Shown here: piece after piece, positions 3,001 through 9,000 of the stretch | How the letters are laid out: each line of letters opens with the position of its first letter | How positions within the stretch are numbered: the stretch's first letter is position 1 | Source: a virus | Length of the DNA stretch: 21,112 nt | Reading direction: 5' to 3' (one strand) | Virus genome (UHGV): UHGV-0072395 | Made by a program: the position numbers

Positions 3001-6000
3001 AAACCACCCTCGGTCTGGACGGTATAGGTTCTTCCCTCTACTGCGATGGTGTCGCGCAACTGAAGGATATCCGCGTAAATATCGCATAACCGTTCAAGGG
3101 CTAAGGTGTCGGCAACCGTTAGCACCCCCATGCCGTCAAGGAGAACCGTCAACCTTCCCCAGGCAACCTTTCCCCAGTCGGTCAGGTGCGCCGGCGGGCT
3201 TGGAATTTCTCGCGCCGGAGTCGGTTCTTTATCGTTGAGTTTACGTTTACCCGGGTTGCCGGAGACCACTTTGAGATGGGTCGGTTTCGGGCGTCGTCCT
3301 GCCATCGGAACCTCCCAGAAAAAATCTTTTCATTTCGCGGTTTTGTACAAAAAGGATGGGCGGCGGTCATTTGGGGTCAGGCTTTTGGACTTTTGACCCG
3401 CCCTCCCCGTCAGATGAGAACCGAAATAATTTCATGTAAAATGATTTCATTTGCAATCATCTCAGCAATAAAGAATGAGATTCATTATCATTTGAACCAG
3501 TGCGAGTTAGGATCAAGCGGTATGCCGCTCTCATCACAACCGATGACGGTGCCGCGCTTCTCCATTCGCTGCTTGGTGGAGTCATGGTGCTGCTTACACA
3601 GCCCTTGCCAGTTCTTCCGGCTCCAGAAAAGCTTTTGCGCCTTCGCTATTGCCTGGCTGTCACCAGAACGCAGAGCCTCTTTCAGTTTGTGCGGGATGAT
3701 ATGGTCAACCACCGTTGCCGCTGTCACCCTGCCTTGCTCGTGGCACATGGTGCATAAGGGGTGAGCACGAAGGAAGATAAGACGCTCTCTGTCCCATTTG
3801 CTGCCGTAGATGCGGGGCTCTTTGTTCATGCTCCCACCTATAAGATGCGTCTCAGCTGGGCGCGTGTCTGAACCATGGTTTTTTCAACAGACTTTTTTAT
3901 AGCTTTAATCTGATCGAGGCTCAGTGCAGTATCGAGGGAAAGCTTGATAACCAACTCTCTTCCGCTAGTATCACATCCAGGAGAGCTCAGCTTGACAGCA
4001 CCATCAATTGCAATTCGATCCGGAAAGAATTCAGGGAAGTCATTAACCTTTCCACGACATCCAAATGCATCGTATTCTGCGAATCCGGCTCCGCTATGGA
4101 GTTCATATCCGGTCTCTTTCACAATAATACGAAGCGATTTGTTGGCTTCTTTTAGCGTTACATGCTTCATATGCGTTTCCTTTTAGGCGTGAGCCTGTCG
4201 CACGGCAATGCCGCCCGAGAGGTAAACGCTACCTAACGGCATTACCCAGGCTCACTACTGAAAGACTCTCTTAATGTGCGCGTGCGAAGCGCTAAATTTA
4301 TCATTGCGACTGCCGGAGACGGCGGTGGCGGCGGTGGTGGCGGTGGCGGTGGCGGTGGCGGCTTTGGTCTCACGTAATTCTTTGGCGGAGAATTGGGTAA
4401 TTTTCTACTCATTCAATAATTCCCAATAAAAAAGCCCCGCTTATGCGAGGCTCTCACTATTATAAAAAAACTACCAACCAACCTGTTTGATTCCTTTGAT
4501 AATCTCTTCGTCACTTAGGTCGTATTTAAAACGGGCGATTAAATACTCACTATCCTGATAAGAAAATGTTTCAATCGGAATATTTATTTGACCGTGGTTG
4601 CCTTTAGGGTCAACTCCATAACATTGGTAAACATCTAAGTTTTGTTCCATTGTTATGATTTTTGGCTCAAGTCCAGGTAGCAATACCAATACTAATTTAT
4701 ACATTTTTATCTCCTCAACTAACGCAAAGAGACATTATCACAGGCACTCAGTGAATGCCTGCTGTAATGCTTACTGCCGTGTGATGTGCTCATAATGGGA
4801 AATGGTCTTGCCGTTTGCGTTCATCACATAGGCTACCTCTCCCGGCTTCAGGAACACGTTCTGATCCATACCCGATACCGCGATACTCTGCTGGCTAGGG
4901 TTGAAACCAACGCTCAGGCCGCAATGGATTTCTTCGCCGCCACCTGGCGACATCACTTTTACTGTTAACATGCTTCTTCTCCTGCTTCTGGTAATAAAAA
5001 AGGCCGCCAGTGGCGACCTTGGTATAGTTCAGTTTGATTATCAGGACGTATGACACGCGTAACAGCAGTAATAGCAGCCGTTAGATTGTGAATAGGTTTT
5101 CTTGGCTTCACGCACTGCCGGAGCACATGTTTCAAAAATTCCCAGATACAGCCTGTTTTTCTCTTCTGGTAACCGAGTGCACGAACTCACATGTACTTCG
5201 TGATCACCATTTAACTGCGCATTTTTATTGACGTAGTAATACTGTCCCATTGTTGTGTCCCAGAGTGATACTGCTGATTGCAGCATTTTCAATCTACGCC
5301 ATGGCACTTAAGCAATTAAGACGAATCTCATTTAACTATGATTGATATCACTTACTTTTCTGGCGGTTGACTTTCTGATTATTGCCTACTAGCTACATTT
5401 AAGTAAGTATCGAACCAGCAGTCCCTATGATCGCTGCAAGCAGCAAGAAGGAGGCCGCTGTTCTGCGCATTAACACACAATAAAATGAGATTGACATAGC
5501 TACGAAGACAACAATCAAAACTGGCCACATATCCAGCAGGAGAAAAATATAGCCTTCGAAGGCACTGTCAATTAGCACGTCCATATCACTAATTCCTCAG
5601 AAGAAAACCTCACCAAAGGAATTTTATCACGAACAACTAGCGCGTTAACCGCCAATCAGCAAGCATGAATTTACCTATTATTAGTAGGTTTCGTCAGACA
5701 GTTCGCCTGCACTGCTTTGTTGTGCGCCAGAATGTCGCGCTTGGTCTGTTTGTCCAAAACGTCGATGTCGTGGTCGGTCAGGTAGATGATCCGCACCCAG
5801 TTGCAGGCGGTATCAACCACCACCGGGGCGGGTAAACTTTTCGCGCAGCTCCCGATCAACAGCGTCATCAGGCATATGGCTAACTGTTTGCTGTACATCG
5901 CTGGCCCCTTTCGTTGCATCAGCACGGCGTTCTGCCGCGGCGACGGTGGCGGCGGCATTCTCTTCGGTACGTTGCTGTTCGGCTTTGGTTTCTGCCTTAC

Positions 6001-9000
6001 TGGTACCGCGTGCATGACCGATACCGAACGCGCCGGCGATAGCCCCCAGAATGACAGCCACCAGCCCGGCAATAATTTCTAAGCTCATCGTTCATCCCTT
6101 ACTGATTGCGAAACCTTGCCAACCATCTGGCTATGCGCACCTACCTCGGAAATCCCAATACCGCTGATACCGATGTATTCCTGTCCGGTCTGCTTATCCT
6201 GAATGAGGTAGACACCCCGCCAGTTTCCGTATGCAAGCTCATCGTGGAACTCAGACATTTTTGTCACGCCAATACGGTCTGCTTCTGCAGAAAGTTGGGA
6301 TGATACAGCCATCGTTGATTTGGCAGGTTCCGGGCCGGTATCACAGGCAGAAAGCAAGATTGCAAAGAGGAGAATGAATATCTTCATGGCTGCTTACTCT
6401 GATTAACCAAGCGGCCTACTACACCGCATGCAGCAATTAACGCCGTAATGGCGCCCATCGTTCCCGGAGGGATTGAAGCTTTGAGGTCCGGCGGCAGCTC
6501 CGCCCAGACCGTGGGGATTACCCCAGCCAGCACCAGCGCATGCATGGAGAACCAGCGCCAGGCACTTTTCCAGTCATCAACGAGTTTCATGATTTGACTT
6601 CCGCAACGATGCCGCCTGCGGCCTTGAATTTGGCAATGAGGTTGTCGGCCTTATGCTCAAACTGACCATAACCAGCGCCGGGGAGTGATGCCCAGATGTT
6701 GCTGCAGCGGTCGATGGCCTGCCGAACCTGCCCACTGTCAATTAGCGGCAGTGCTCCGCGCTCTTTAATCTGCTGCAGCGCGACCTGGTCCTGCGACGCC
6801 GGGGAGAAGTCTTTCAGCCCAAGCTGTTTACGGTATGCATCCCACCACTTCGACAAAAGCTGGTAGCGCCCAGCTGCGGTGGATTTGATACCCAGCTTTG
6901 GCAGGTTCACCAGCTTGCGAGGATGGTCGCTGTAATCAGTAAAGAGTGAACCGCCGACGATGACGTCGTACCCTTTGTTTTTGGTGGGCTGACCAGGCTT
7001 GTCTGTGCCTTCCGACCAGGCGAGCATGTCCAAAAACGCCCTTCGTTGCTTATTAATTTCCTGCATTTCCTACACCGCCTTTTTATAGTCGTCACCAAAA
7101 CCAGCGCGCAGATAACCCGGCGCTGATACCAGCCGCCTGCTGAAATTGTGATTGATTCATTAGTGCCTCAGTAGATCAACCAGCCGCGCTACATTGCCTC
7201 TTACGCTCAGCAGCACAACCAGGATCATGATATTGGCCCCGATGGTGGGCCACGTGGAGTAGGGGTAGATGCCGCACAGATACGCCAGCGGCACAGAGCT
7301 GTATATGACTGTTATCAGCCAGGCCAGCCGCGAGACCCACTTCCGATGCCGTGAGTCTCTACGGCGATAGAACATCAACGTAACCACGACCGCTGCGCAT
7401 AGCAGCGCATTGATGGTTGCAGTAGGATCATTTAGTACCACCGGAACCTCCCCGGCGCGTTATTAGCGCCACCAGCGAGCCAATATCCTGATTGTTCAGG
7501 AAGGTGAGTATTTTAACGGCCAATGCCGAAATGATTACGGCACCAATAGCATCAAGAGGTTTGTCGCTGTACCCCGTAAGGGCAGAGAGTTTGGAACCCA
7601 CCAGCCCGGAACACAGAACCCCAGCGATATAGGACACAACGAAATAAGCCATCCGCCTTGTTGCGCTTAAATCAGCTGCGGTCGCTATATAAAACACAGA
7701 ACCGGCAAATGCCCCGAACACAACGCCGTAATCAGTACCGGTTAACAGCCCGTATACACTCGCTCCCGTTAGGGCGCCACCAGCTAAGCCTGTGCCGGTT
7801 ATTGGTTCGGACATCGGTCCCCCTCAATTGCTGTGAATCCTCTCAAAACGAGGGGAAAGGAATAGGCGACCCTGTTAGCGATTGCGGGGTTAGGAATCCC
7901 TCAACCTATAACCTGCCTGGATTGGGTTATGAGCCCGTCAGACAGTGGGCCTGTATGAATGGCCGCCAGATGGATTTACGACAAAACACAGAGTGAGTGA
8001 CGTTCTGGCAACACAGTAAGAAGTTTGGATAACAGTGGCTTTCTTAATTTCCAATTGTTAAAAATTGCCACCCACCATAAATAGCAGTAAAAATATAACG
8101 AATTGTTTTATAAGTAATAATTTTGAATCCATAAGTAAAAATAAGAATCAATACAAGATTTTAAACTTATATTTACCAAAAAATTAGCTTTAAATCCTTA
8201 AAAAACAAAAAGAAACAGAAAACCATAAAATATGATTATTTGAGCATTATTAATCGAAATTATCGATTAGGATTTTTCTTACTCAAGTTATAAATTCCAC
8301 TCCATAAAAAAATCAATAACCCTTGGGAGAGACATTCTGTGTCAAATTTTCTGATGCTAGCGTTAGCTGTAATACTTTTTTTAGTTTCGTTAGTTTTTTT
8401 TGTTTCTTATCTGAAGGACAAGAAAAAGTTAAAAAATACATTTAAACGTCGCCGCTAACCTTTTCGCAGATTTCGGTTCGGGGTTGTTCTTTACCTAGTC
8501 AGGGTTCAGGTTTATCAGTAAATCAGATAAAAATGCGTGCGTAATATTCGCCCGCTGTTGATTAAATTTCATGGCCTCCACATCTGACGGGAATCAGTAC
8601 ACTTTTTGAAGAGGGAGAGCTGCTTAAGCTGGCAACCACCAGTGATTCGGATTTACTTATATAAAAGCGGTGATATCATCGCGTAGCCTGTATTGACACA
8701 CCAGGTGCCTAAACTTTGCATATCATCTTAATGCGCCCGCTAATTTGACCATCTCTGAGCGGGCTTTTTTCGTTTATACTGTACTCATAATGAAAAAGAC
8801 AATCCCCTGATTTCCCCTGTCACCTACCCGTGCAGGGGATTTTTTCACCCAAAGAAAAGGCCCGCCGCTGCGAGCCTGCCACTGCTTTTTCTTTGTTTGA
8901 GTTGGTTGTGGTGCCGGGTGCCTCCCGGTGAGCTTTTCTGCTGACCAACATTAGCTCGCGTTCAATACCTTCTAACTCTGCTGACATTAATGTCTTGCAT

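What the first reader, a model, noticed from the sequence alone, without database searches (positions are those of the whole stretch)
5671..6088. Overlapped two-frame gene pair resembling i-spanin/o-spanin, but unusually short
A 91-aa protein with one N-terminal TM helix and a charged tail (5813..6088) overlaps, in a different frame, a 75-aa lipoprotein-like ORF (5671..5898) with lipobox-like IGSC. This is the overlapped spanin architecture known from P2 LysB/LysC. Both are short, and the putative o-spanin is not proline-rich, so it may be a divergent spanin pair.
Basis: partly seen in the sequence, partly recalled or inferred. Interest (0 to 1): 0.45.

Follow-up and report, generated by a model that had tools for sequence, protein, structure and literature searches.

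The report
Short overlapped phage spanin gene pair
The two overlapping genes are a real pair of phage lysis proteins (spanins) that most likely break the bacterial outer membrane, and they belong to a short spanin family already listed in the curated spanin database, so the finding is correct but ordinary.

Summary
On the minus strand, a 91-aa protein with one N-terminal transmembrane helix (6088..5813) overlaps by 86 nt a 75-aa lipoprotein precursor in the +1 frame (5898..5671). The pair ends a prophage lysis cassette: two holins, a lambda-R-type endolysin, a DUF7940 protein and a small lipoprotein.

Both frames are intact in all 82 related loci that could be scored (one more is cut by a contig end). 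Nucleotide diversity moves to the third codon position of whichever frame is coding. dN/dS is 0.21 for the i-spanin-only part and 0.10 for the o-spanin-only part, against more than 1.2 in the wrong frames.

The pair matches PHROG families 1026 and 1275 (both "Rz-like spanin", E about 1e-32). It is 69% and 71% identical to gp70 and gp71 of coliphage HK639, which the curated SpaninDB (Kongari et al. 2018) lists as an overlapped spanin pair of the same lengths (91 and 75 aa) and the same 86-nt overlap.

Neither "unusually short" nor "not proline-rich" marks divergence. About 11% of overlapped i-spanins in SpaninDB are as short or shorter, and the T4 o-spanin family has no proline-rich region either. 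It is not a P2 LysB/LysC or lambda Rz/Rz1 homologue.

No experiment on this family was found. One doubt remains: the N-terminus of the i-spanin has no positive charge, so its membrane orientation is not certain. Already known; low interest.

The parts
5813..6088 (-). i-spanin gene (91 aa): N-terminal transmembrane helix at about residues 5-24, then a periplasmic domain of about 67 aa, predicted helical, ending in the conserved motif PDDxVDRELRExFTRPG. No periplasmic Cys.
   Evidence: ORF. phrog_1026 'Rz-like spanin', E 4e-33. 69% identical to HK639 gp70 in SpaninDB. dN/dS 0.21. Hydropathy. AlphaFold2 model with helices 2-26, 31-70 and 74-86, low confidence (pLDDT 62).
5671..5898 (-). o-spanin gene (75 aa precursor, +1 frame): lipoprotein signal peptide with lipobox LIGS|C (Cys18, Ala at +2), then a 58-aa mature outer-membrane lipoprotein carrying the family signature VVxDTxCxW...HNx6C (Cys32, Cys67).
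   Evidence: ORF. phrog_1275 'Rz-like spanin', E 2e-32. 71% identical to HK639 gp71. Lipobox rule. Invariant residues in close and distant relatives. dN/dS 0.10.
5813..5898 (-). [quoted passage not shown]
   Evidence: The overlap is 86 nt in all 82 relatives scored and in HK639 (Table S4). Diversity is low at all three codon positions.
5899..5912 (-). Shine-Dalgarno sequence of the o-spanin (AAAGGGG, 6 nt before the ATG), lying inside the i-spanin coding sequence.
   Evidence: Read from the sequence. HK639 has GAGG at the equivalent place.
6085..6102 (-). i-spanin ribosome-binding site (AAGGGA) and the ATGA overlap of its start with the stop of the upstream gene, which suggests translational coupling to the upstream lipoprotein gene.
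   Evidence: Read from the sequence.
6587..7066 (-). Endolysin of the same cassette, a lambda R-type lytic transglycosylase. Context only.
   Evidence: PDB 1AM7, E 6e-84. phrog_90 endolysin.
7160..7814 (-). Two holin genes of the same cassette (7814..7428, PF16931; 7441..7160, PF05449). Context only.
   Evidence: Pfam and PHROG hits.

Best explanation
This is the two-component spanin of a lambdoid prophage, probably from the Klebsiella/Raoultella group. It belongs to the HK639/mEp390 i-spanin family and the 'BcepNazgul' o-spanin family of SpaninDB.

Shown here:
- two overlapping genes, each under purifying selection;
- a single-pass membrane protein and a lipoprotein with an outer-membrane sorting signal;
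- a position at the end of a holin-endolysin cassette;
- the pair inherited as one unit next to different endolysins.

Inferred from what is established for lambda Rz/Rz1 and T4 PseT.3/PseT.2:
1. The 91-aa protein is anchored in the inner membrane with its helical C-terminal domain in the periplasm.
2. The 58-aa lipoprotein is lipidated at Cys18 and sorted to the inner leaflet of the outer membrane.
3. The conserved C-terminus of the i-spanin (DRELRExFTRPG) binds the small structured domain of the o-spanin.
4. Cys32 and Cys67, invariant in the o-spanin while the i-spanin has none (the T4-type arrangement), form disulfides that stabilise or oligomerise the complex.
5. After the holins and the lambda-R-type endolysin remove the peptidoglycan, the complex pulls the two membranes together and fuses or disrupts them, completing lysis.

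The overlap places the constrained i-spanin C-terminus over the mutation-tolerant o-spanin signal peptide.
For: - **Family hits.** phrog_1026 (E 4e-33) and phrog_1275 (E 2e-32), both 'Rz-like spanin', each covering nearly the whole profile (85 and 81 positions).
- **Curated database.** SpaninDB lists HK639 gp70/gp71 and mEp390 051/052 as overlapped spanins of 91 and 75 aa. For HK639 it records 0 and 2 periplasmic Cys and an 86-nt overlap. The window proteins are 69% and 71% identical to the HK639 pair.
- **Conservation.** All 82 relatives scored keep both genes in the same geometry. The codon-position and dN/dS pattern fits two real genes.
- **Lipoprotein signal.** Lipobox with Ala at +2. Cys18 is invariant and residues -4 to -1 vary only as LI[G/A/T/V]S or LFGS among 27 relatives. 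The signature VVxDTxCxW...HNx6C is shared with o-spanins of phages 73, KL1, AF and Nazgul.
- **Distant i-spanins.** Several distant partner i-spanins end in a similar acidic-xLRxxW/F motif (phages 73 and KL1 closest). Phages 73 and KL1 also carry K/R before the membrane helix.
- **Natural variant.** L057 joins the same periplasmic domain to a different membrane helix preceded by K3 and K5.
- **Context.** Two holins, an endolysin matching lambda lysozyme 1AM7 (E 6e-84) and DUF7940 lie upstream; HNH endonuclease and terminase genes lie downstream.
- **Modularity.** The pair follows a putative GH19-type endolysin (by similarity to annotated relatives) in 41 loci, a DUF7940-like protein in 36 and another endolysin-like protein in 2, always as a unit.
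- **Annotation elsewhere.** Among 194 phage records with an o-spanin homologue, many are annotated Rz1, o-spanin or Rz-like spanin.
- **Cysteines.** '0 Cys in the i-spanin, 2 in the o-spanin' is the commonest combination in SpaninDB, and both Cys are essential in T4.
Against: - I found no experiment on this family; the two literature searches turned up only bioinformatic listings.
- The N-terminus (MSLE, Glu4 invariant in the 30-sequence alignment, no K/R) and the K/R-rich stretch after the membrane helix give no positive-inside signal for the N-in/C-out orientation an i-spanin needs. The SpaninDB curators noted the same doubt.
- SpaninDB's coiled-coil table gives none for the HK639 i-spanin (Table S3).
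- The AlphaFold2 models are of low confidence: pLDDT 62 and 57.
- There are no Pfam or NCBIfam spanin hits.
- Rough geometry from helix and extended-chain lengths (my own estimate, not a tool result) gives about 16 nm or less end to end. That is less than commonly quoted widths of the E. coli periplasm.
Confidence: 0.85

Rival explanations
1. The lipoprotein is a genuine outer-membrane lysis factor, but the 91-aa protein inserts N-out/C-in with its charged tail in the cytoplasm. In that case it would be a holin/antiholin-like or regulatory membrane protein rather than an i-spanin, and the pair would not form a bridge across the periplasm.
For: The N-terminal flank is MSLE, with Glu4 invariant in the 30-sequence alignment and no K/R, while the 15 residues after the membrane helix hold three K/R. 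[quoted passage not shown] The membrane helix is 50% Gly/Ala/Ser/Thr. No coiled coil is predicted.
Against: The o-spanin family always comes with an overlapped or adjacent small single-pass partner, and several of these end in a similar motif. Partners in phages 73 and KL1 and the L057 variant do have K/R before the membrane helix while L057 keeps the same C-terminal domain. The most conserved part of the protein is its extreme C-terminus, which is where Rz contacts Rz1. The cassette already has two holins and a DUF7940 protein, and no other i-spanin candidate is present.
Confidence: 0.07
2. The pair is not a lysis module but a prophage 'moron', for example a lipoprotein-based superinfection-exclusion or surface-modification system like Cor or TrbK, that happens to sit after the endolysin gene.
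For: There is a weak, sub-threshold hit of the 75-aa protein to the entry-exclusion lipoprotein TrbK (E 0.022, 14.7 bits against a cut-off of 23). The region between the lysis and terminase genes of lambdoid phages often carries morons (my own knowledge). Nearly all database copies are annotated 'hypothetical'.
Against: The TrbK hit is below threshold and covers only the signal peptide and the start of the mature part (query residues 6-43). Homologues also occur in Pseudomonas, Xanthomonas, Yersinia, Serratia and Burkholderia phages, which SpaninDB and many depositors read as the phage's spanin pair. The pair directly abuts, or is translationally coupled to, lysis genes in every locus examined. 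No anti-phage defence family is matched.
Confidence: 0.04
3. The second frame is a chance ORF, and the real product is the long 133-aa ORF or a frameshift fusion of the two frames.
For: The o-frame is open for 60 codons upstream of the ATG. Databases contain fused or extended calls of 107-131 aa.
Against: dN/dS of the o-frame across the i-only region is 1.49, so it is not coding. In 20 of 74 relatives a stop lies 4 codons upstream of the ATG, and 52% of synonymous-codon resamplings give an equally long open frame. The o-only region has dN/dS 0.10, with an invariant start, lipobox Cys and signature residues.
Confidence: 0.01

Closest known systems
Coliphage HK639 gp70/gp71 and mEp390 gp051/gp052 (SpaninDB: i-spanin family 'HK639, mEP390'; o-spanin family 'BcepNazgul'; PHROG 1026 and 1275)
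   Same: Same lengths (91 and 75 aa), +1 frame and lipobox type (LI[A/G]S|C). HK639 also has the same 86-nt overlap and the same Cys arrangement (0 in the i-spanin, 2 in the o-spanin). Same C-terminal i-spanin motif and same o-spanin signature. 69% and 71% identity to the HK639 pair.
   Different: Only sequence divergence of about 30% and different neighbours. Here the pair follows a lambda-R-type endolysin, DUF7940 and an extra 100-aa lipoprotein.
o-spanins of Pseudomonas phages 73/Kakheti25/AF, Burkholderia phages KL1 and BcepNazgul, and Yersinia phage PY100 (the rest of the BcepNazgul o-spanin family)
   Same: Lipoprotein with the invariant VVxDTxCxW...HNx6C signature. Overlapped on a short i-spanin (periplasmic domain 61-97 aa) without Cys, in several cases ending in a similar acidic-xLRxxW/F motif.
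   Different: 23-42% identity. Most have a longer linker after the lipidated Cys and a Pro after the Trp (WxxP), where this clade has WVRI. Their i-spanins fall in other SpaninDB families, and some have K/R before the membrane helix.
T4 PseT.3/PseT.2 spanins
   Same: i-spanin without Cys. o-spanin with two conserved Cys, predicted beta/alpha structure and no proline-rich region. This is the best-studied functional analogue for the disulfide arrangement.
   Different: Separated rather than overlapped genes, no detectable sequence similarity, and a longer i-spanin (117 aa).
P2 LysB/LysC
   Same: Overlapped architecture, with the o-spanin starting inside the i-spanin gene and ending beyond it.
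   Different: No sequence relationship: no NCBIfam or Pfam hit of any kind relevant to spanins, and different PHROGs. The P2 i-spanin periplasmic domain is 119 aa against about 65 here.
Lambda Rz/Rz1
   Same: Same inferred job and position in the cassette after an R-type endolysin. The o-spanin is in the +1 frame.
   Different: Lambda's pair is embedded rather than overlapped. Rz is 153 aa with two coiled-coil domains and two Cys, and Rz1 is unstructured and proline-rich. None of this applies here.

Membership tests
Two-component spanin (generic definition, Kongari et al. 2018) | i-spanin: small protein with a single N-terminal transmembrane domain | tested here: met
   Hydropathy maximum 2.56 over residues 5-23. 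Helix 2-26 in the model.
Two-component spanin (generic definition, Kongari et al. 2018) | i-spanin topology N-in/C-out (periplasmic C-terminal domain) | tested here: inconclusive
   Charge distribution gives no positive-inside signal: MSLE before the helix and three K/R in the 15 residues after it. The curators raised the same doubt. Relatives with K/R before the helix (phages 73, KL1, L057) argue for N-in. A fusion or protease experiment is needed.
Two-component spanin (generic definition, Kongari et al. 2018) | o-spanin: signal peptidase II signal with a lipobox Cys and no Asp at +2 (outer-membrane sorting) | tested here: met
   ICLMTLLIGS|C fits the lipobox rule (written from memory after PROSITE PS51257), with K4 in the n-region and Ala at +2. 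Cys18 is invariant in relatives. No dedicated predictor (LipoP, SignalP) was available.
Two-component spanin (generic definition, Kongari et al. 2018) | The o-spanin gene is embedded in, overlapping or adjacent to the i-spanin gene, within or near the lysis cassette | tested here: met
   86-nt overlap in the +1 frame. Holins and endolysin lie directly upstream.
Two-component spanin (generic definition, Kongari et al. 2018) | At least one periplasmic Cys for disulfide linkage (507 of 528 systems) | tested here: met
   Cys32 and Cys67 in the o-spanin, invariant across the family; none in the i-spanin.
Two-component spanin (generic definition, Kongari et al. 2018) | The two subunits form a complex and are required for outer-membrane disruption (spherical cells in Mg2+ when absent) | not testable with these tools
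   I found no experimental report for this family in two literature searches.
HK639/mEp390 i-spanin family (SpaninDB; PHROG 1026) | At least 40% identity over at least 40% of the periplasmic domain to every member | tested here: met
   69% identity over 90 of 91 residues to HK639 gp70 and 73% to mEp390 in the alignment. phrog_1026 E 4e-33.
BcepNazgul o-spanin family (SpaninDB; PHROG 1275) | Sequence similarity of the mature domain, including the shared signature VVxDTxCxW...HNx6C | tested here: met
   71% identity to HK639 gp71. Invariant V26 V27 D29 T30 C32 W34 H59 N60 C67 with phages 73, KL1, AF and Nazgul. phrog_1275 E 2e-32.
P2 LysB/LysC family | Sequence homology to LysB and LysC | tested here: not met
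   No NCBIfam or Pfam match relevant to spanins at E of 0.1 or better. The best PHROGs are different families. Only the overlapped architecture is shared.
Lambda Rz/Rz1 family | Embedded architecture, two coiled-coil domains in Rz, and a proline-rich region in Rz1 | tested here: not met
   Overlapped rather than embedded. No coiled coil recorded for the HK639 homologue. 3 Pro in 58 mature residues. No Pfam Rz or Rz1 hit.

The most novel reading that the evidence does not exclude
This very short spanin type has about 65 plus 58 periplasmic residues, no predicted coiled coil and an acidic N-terminus with no positive charge. It may therefore not form a pre-assembled bridge across the periplasm as Rz/Rz1 does. 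Either the 'i-spanin' has an unconventional or dynamic topology (for example late, depolarisation-dependent exposure of its C-terminal domain), or the two subunits can meet only after the peptidoglycan is gone and the membranes come closer. That would be a mechanistically distinct route to outer-membrane disruption within a widely distributed family that has not been studied experimentally.
Probability: 0.07. Interest if true: 0.5.

Novelty: already known. Interest (0 to 1): 0.1.

Why it matters
It matters little as a discovery. It is a correct annotation of a catalogued spanin family.

There is some practical value. Genome pipelines label nearly all of the many Klebsiella, Raoultella and E. 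coli prophage copies 'hypothetical protein' (1,729 i-spanin and 555 o-spanin clusters at 90% identity). They often miss the o-spanin, start it too late, or call a false long ORF in its frame. Neither Pfam nor NCBIfam has a model for it.

The family is also a compact test case for two open questions about spanins: how short a periplasm-spanning fusion machine can be, and how an i-spanin without N-terminal positive charge gets oriented in the membrane.

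Tried and rejected
- **Pfam and NCBIfam scans** of both proteins gave no meaningful hits. The DUF, Rv1733c and TrbK matches are all far below their cut-offs. PADLOC gave nothing for the pair.
- **AlphaFold2 models** from alignments of close relatives came out at low confidence (pLDDT 62 and 57). I used them only for secondary structure and ran no fold search, because matches to such models would be meaningless. Only proteins from the window or from the search for homologous proteins could be submitted, so the distant family members (phages 73, KL1, Nazgul) could not be added to deepen the alignment.
- **The 133-aa TTG ORF and frameshift-fusion idea** was tested and rejected.
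- **The 100-aa upstream lipoprotein as a third spanin component** was considered. It is present in only 2 of 81 related loci, so it is not part of the conserved module.
- **Promoter and terminator scan** around the cassette gave counts at the level of shuffled sequence and was uninformative.
- **Literature searches** for experiments on HK639-type spanins found none.
- **Megablast against phages** found no record covering the whole cassette. The cassette is mosaic, and the spanin module on its own matches Klebsiella phages at 85-90%.

Full report
**1. What is in the sequence**

On the minus strand, the ORF listing gives a 91-aa ATG ORF at 6088..5813. The 75-aa frame is +1 relative to the 91-aa frame, and the two overlap by 86 nt (5898..5813).

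Each start has a plausible Shine-Dalgarno sequence: AAGGGA 6 nt before the i-spanin ATG and AAAGGGG 6 nt before the o-spanin ATG. The i-spanin ATG overlaps the stop of the upstream gene (ATGA), which suggests translational coupling.

The 91-aa protein has one strongly hydrophobic stretch (residues 5-23, mean Kyte-Doolittle 2.56), followed by a charged tail of about 67 aa rich in Ala, Glu, Lys and Gln, with no Cys.

The 75-aa protein begins MYSK-QLAICLMTLLIGS|C. This fits a lipoprotein signal rule that I wrote from memory after PROSITE PS51257: Lys in the n-region, an uncharged h-region, [AGS] at -1 and Cys at position 18. Ala at +2 predicts sorting to the outer membrane. The mature part is 58 aa with 3 Pro and 2 further Cys.

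**2. Is it more than chance?**

I collected 83 related loci: 80 IMG/VR contigs, two annotated phages and an E. coli prophage.

- All 83 encode both proteins in the same relative position.
- In the 82 that could be scored, the i-spanin is 91 aa (87-92 aa in three variants with shifted starts). The overlap is always 86 nt, and the o-spanin is 69-78 aa, with length variation only in its extreme C-terminus.
- Among 71 distinct sequences, nucleotide diversity in the i-only part is 0.10, 0.12 and 0.33 at i-frame codon positions 1, 2 and 3.
- In the o-only part it is 0.07, 0.04 and 0.23 at o-frame positions 1, 2 and 3.
- In the overlap it is low at all positions (0.03-0.08).
- Nei-Gojobori dN/dS is 0.21 for the i-only part and 0.10 for the o-only part, against 1.25-2.6 for the wrong frames.

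This is the signature of two real protein-coding genes that change frame at the overlap.

The upstream extension of the o-frame (the 133-aa ORF) is not coding. Its dN/dS is 1.49, 20 of 74 relatives have a stop 4 codons before the ATG, and 52% of synonymous-codon resamplings leave the frame equally open.

**3. Context**

Upstream on the same strand lie:

- a PF16931 holin (7814..7428);
- a PF05449 holin (7441..7160);
- an endolysin matching lambda lysozyme 1AM7 at E 6e-84 (7066..6587);
- a DUF7940 membrane protein (6590..6384);
- a 100-aa lipoprotein (6387..6085).

Downstream are small genes of unknown function, an HNH endonuclease and the terminase subunits. So the pair closes the lysis cassette of a lambdoid prophage.

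The closest DNA matches are Klebsiella prophages at 85-91%, and the closest i-spanin protein is from Raoultella terrigena at 93%.

Across relatives, the pair follows a putative GH19-type endolysin (41 loci), a DUF7940-like protein (36) or another endolysin-like protein (2). The 100-aa lipoprotein seen here precedes it in only 2 loci. The two genes therefore travel as one module, whatever lysis genes precede them.

**4. What it is**

Pfam and NCBIfam have no model for either protein. PHROGs does: phrog_1026 (E 4e-33) and phrog_1275 (E 2e-32), both annotated 'Rz-like spanin', with near full-length matches to profiles of 85 and 81 positions. The short lengths are therefore a property of the families.

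The supplementary tables of Kongari et al. 2018 (PMC6139136), the curated SpaninDB, settle the matter. They list coliphage HK639 gp70 as an i-spanin of 91 aa with a 65-67-aa periplasmic domain and 0 Cys. They list gp71 as an o-spanin of 75 aa (58 mature) with lipobox LIAS|C and 2 periplasmic Cys. The pair is classed as 'overlapped', with an 86-nt overlap. mEp390 carries a second such pair of the same two lengths.

The window proteins are 69% and 71% identical to the HK639 pair, with the same lengths and geometry.

SpaninDB places the o-spanin in the 10-member 'BcepNazgul' family (Nazgul, 73, Kakheti25, SCH_Ab26, KL1, HK639, mEp390, PY100, AF, AH2). Aligned with those members, the window o-spanin keeps every invariant position: Cys18, VVxDTxCxW and HNx6C.

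The partner i-spanins of those phages fall in different SpaninDB families. They share the design of a short single-pass protein with no Cys, and several end in a similar acidic-xLRxxW/F motif, phages 73 and KL1 most closely.

tblastn finds o-spanin homologues in 194 phage records from Pseudomonas, Klebsiella, Yersinia, Serratia, Xanthomonas, Escherichia and Burkholderia hosts, many annotated Rz1 or o-spanin. A search of the 50%-identity representative library finds 107 clusters.

**5.

*'Unusually short.'* In SpaninDB Table S2, 21 of 190 overlapped i-spanins (11%) have a periplasmic domain of 65 aa or less (range 45-141, median 95). The combined periplasmic length of two-component spanins ranges from 62 to 300 residues. 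The roughly 123 residues here are short but well inside that range.

*'Not proline-rich.'* This is true (3 of 58), but the T4 o-spanin family also lacks a proline-rich region.

The Cys arrangement (0 in the i-spanin, 2 in the o-spanin) is the commonest in SpaninDB. It is the T4 PseT.3/PseT.2 arrangement, in which both Cys are essential.

The P2 LysB/LysC comparison holds for gene architecture only. There is no sequence relationship.

**6. Mechanism**

Shown here:

- two overlapping genes, each under purifying selection;
- a membrane anchor on one product and an outer-membrane lipoprotein signal on the other;
- a position at the end of the lysis cassette;
- inheritance as a unit.

Inferred by homology to catalogued spanins and by analogy to lambda and T4:

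1. The i-spanin sits in the inner membrane with a mostly helical periplasmic domain. The AlphaFold2 model has helices 31-70 and 74-86 at low confidence. Jpred gave 72% helix for HK639.
2. The o-spanin is tethered to the outer membrane by a short linker (CAKSLPAP), followed by a small beta-hairpin plus two-helix domain (low-confidence model).
3. The conserved i-spanin C-terminus contacts the o-spanin domain.
4. Cys32 and Cys67 form disulfides.
5. Once the peptidoglycan is degraded, the complex brings the membranes together and disrupts the outer membrane.

The overlap places the most conserved segment of the i-spanin on top of the o-spanin signal peptide, which tolerates change. In the overlap, dN/dS is 0.46 in the i-frame and 0.99 in the o-frame.

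**7. Remaining doubt**

The N-terminus before the membrane helix is MSLE, with Glu4 invariant in the 30-sequence alignment and no Lys or Arg. Three K/R follow the helix. The positive-inside rule therefore does not predict the N-in/C-out orientation an i-spanin needs. The SpaninDB curators recorded the same doubt for HK639, and the same charge flag for mEp390 and AF.

Against this, homologous partners in phages 73 and KL1 have K/R before the helix. A natural variant (L057) joins the same periplasmic domain to a different membrane helix preceded by K3 and K5.

I found no experimental study of this family. I put the spanin explanation at about 0.85. The main rival, an inverted topology with a different role for the 91-aa protein, I put at about 0.07.

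**8. Verdict**

It is a member of a known, widely distributed spanin family. Novelty: already known. Interest: low (0.1). Its only wider relevance is as an under-annotated family with no Pfam or NCBIfam model, and as a compact system for asking how short spanins work.

Noticed in passing
window 6085-6387 (- strand): A 100-aa lipoprotein (MKIFILLFAILLSA|C) with Asp at +2, the classic inner-membrane retention signal. It lies between DUF7940 and the i-spanin, and its stop overlaps the i-spanin start (ATGA). It matches phrog_16585 (unknown function) and gives a weak PADLOC UzuA hit (E 9e-5, 27 residues). It precedes the spanin pair in only 2 of 81 related loci, so it looks like a rare insertion into the lysis cassette.
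   Followed up: partly
window 4242-4412 (- strand), tract about 4320-4364: A run of 15 consecutive proline codons (CCN)15 inside a 56-aa ORF (MSRKLPNSPPKNYVRPKPPPPPPPPPPPPPPPSPAV...). No PADLOC hit. Whether it is coding is unknown.
   Followed up: no
window 6384-7814 (- strand): The lysis cassette carries three holin-like membrane proteins: a PF16931 holin (7814..7428) and a PF05449 holin (7441..7160) upstream of the lambda-R-type endolysin, and a DUF7940 protein (phrog_1356 'holin', 6590..6384) just downstream of it. Pfam-A has no hit for the endolysin, although it matches PDB 1AM7 at E 6e-84.
   Followed up: partly
window 5671-6072 (- strand); database proteins P0001, P0004, P0017, P0020, P0024: The o-spanin frame stays open far upstream by chance, and public gene calls often report false proteins of 107-131 aa in this frame. 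P0001 looks like a frameshifted fusion of the i-spanin N-terminus to the o-frame. Many other calls start the o-spanin too late (63-67 aa, beginning at MTMLIGSC or MLIGSC), which removes the n-region of the signal peptide.
   Followed up: yes
L057 (IMGVR_UViG_2767802207_000006), i-spanin at about locus 2308-2586: A natural variant in which the conserved periplasmic domain of the i-spanin is joined to an unrelated membrane helix with a positively charged N-terminus (MTKLKVILAF...). This suggests that membrane-helix modules are exchanged between i-spanins.
   Followed up: partly
window 5399-5584 and 5041-5307 (- strand): Two small conserved phage ORFs of unknown function lie directly downstream of the spanins. 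One is a 61-aa predicted membrane protein (phrog_36556). The other is an 88-aa Cys-rich protein ending in CYYCCYACHTS (phrog_4298).
   Followed up: no
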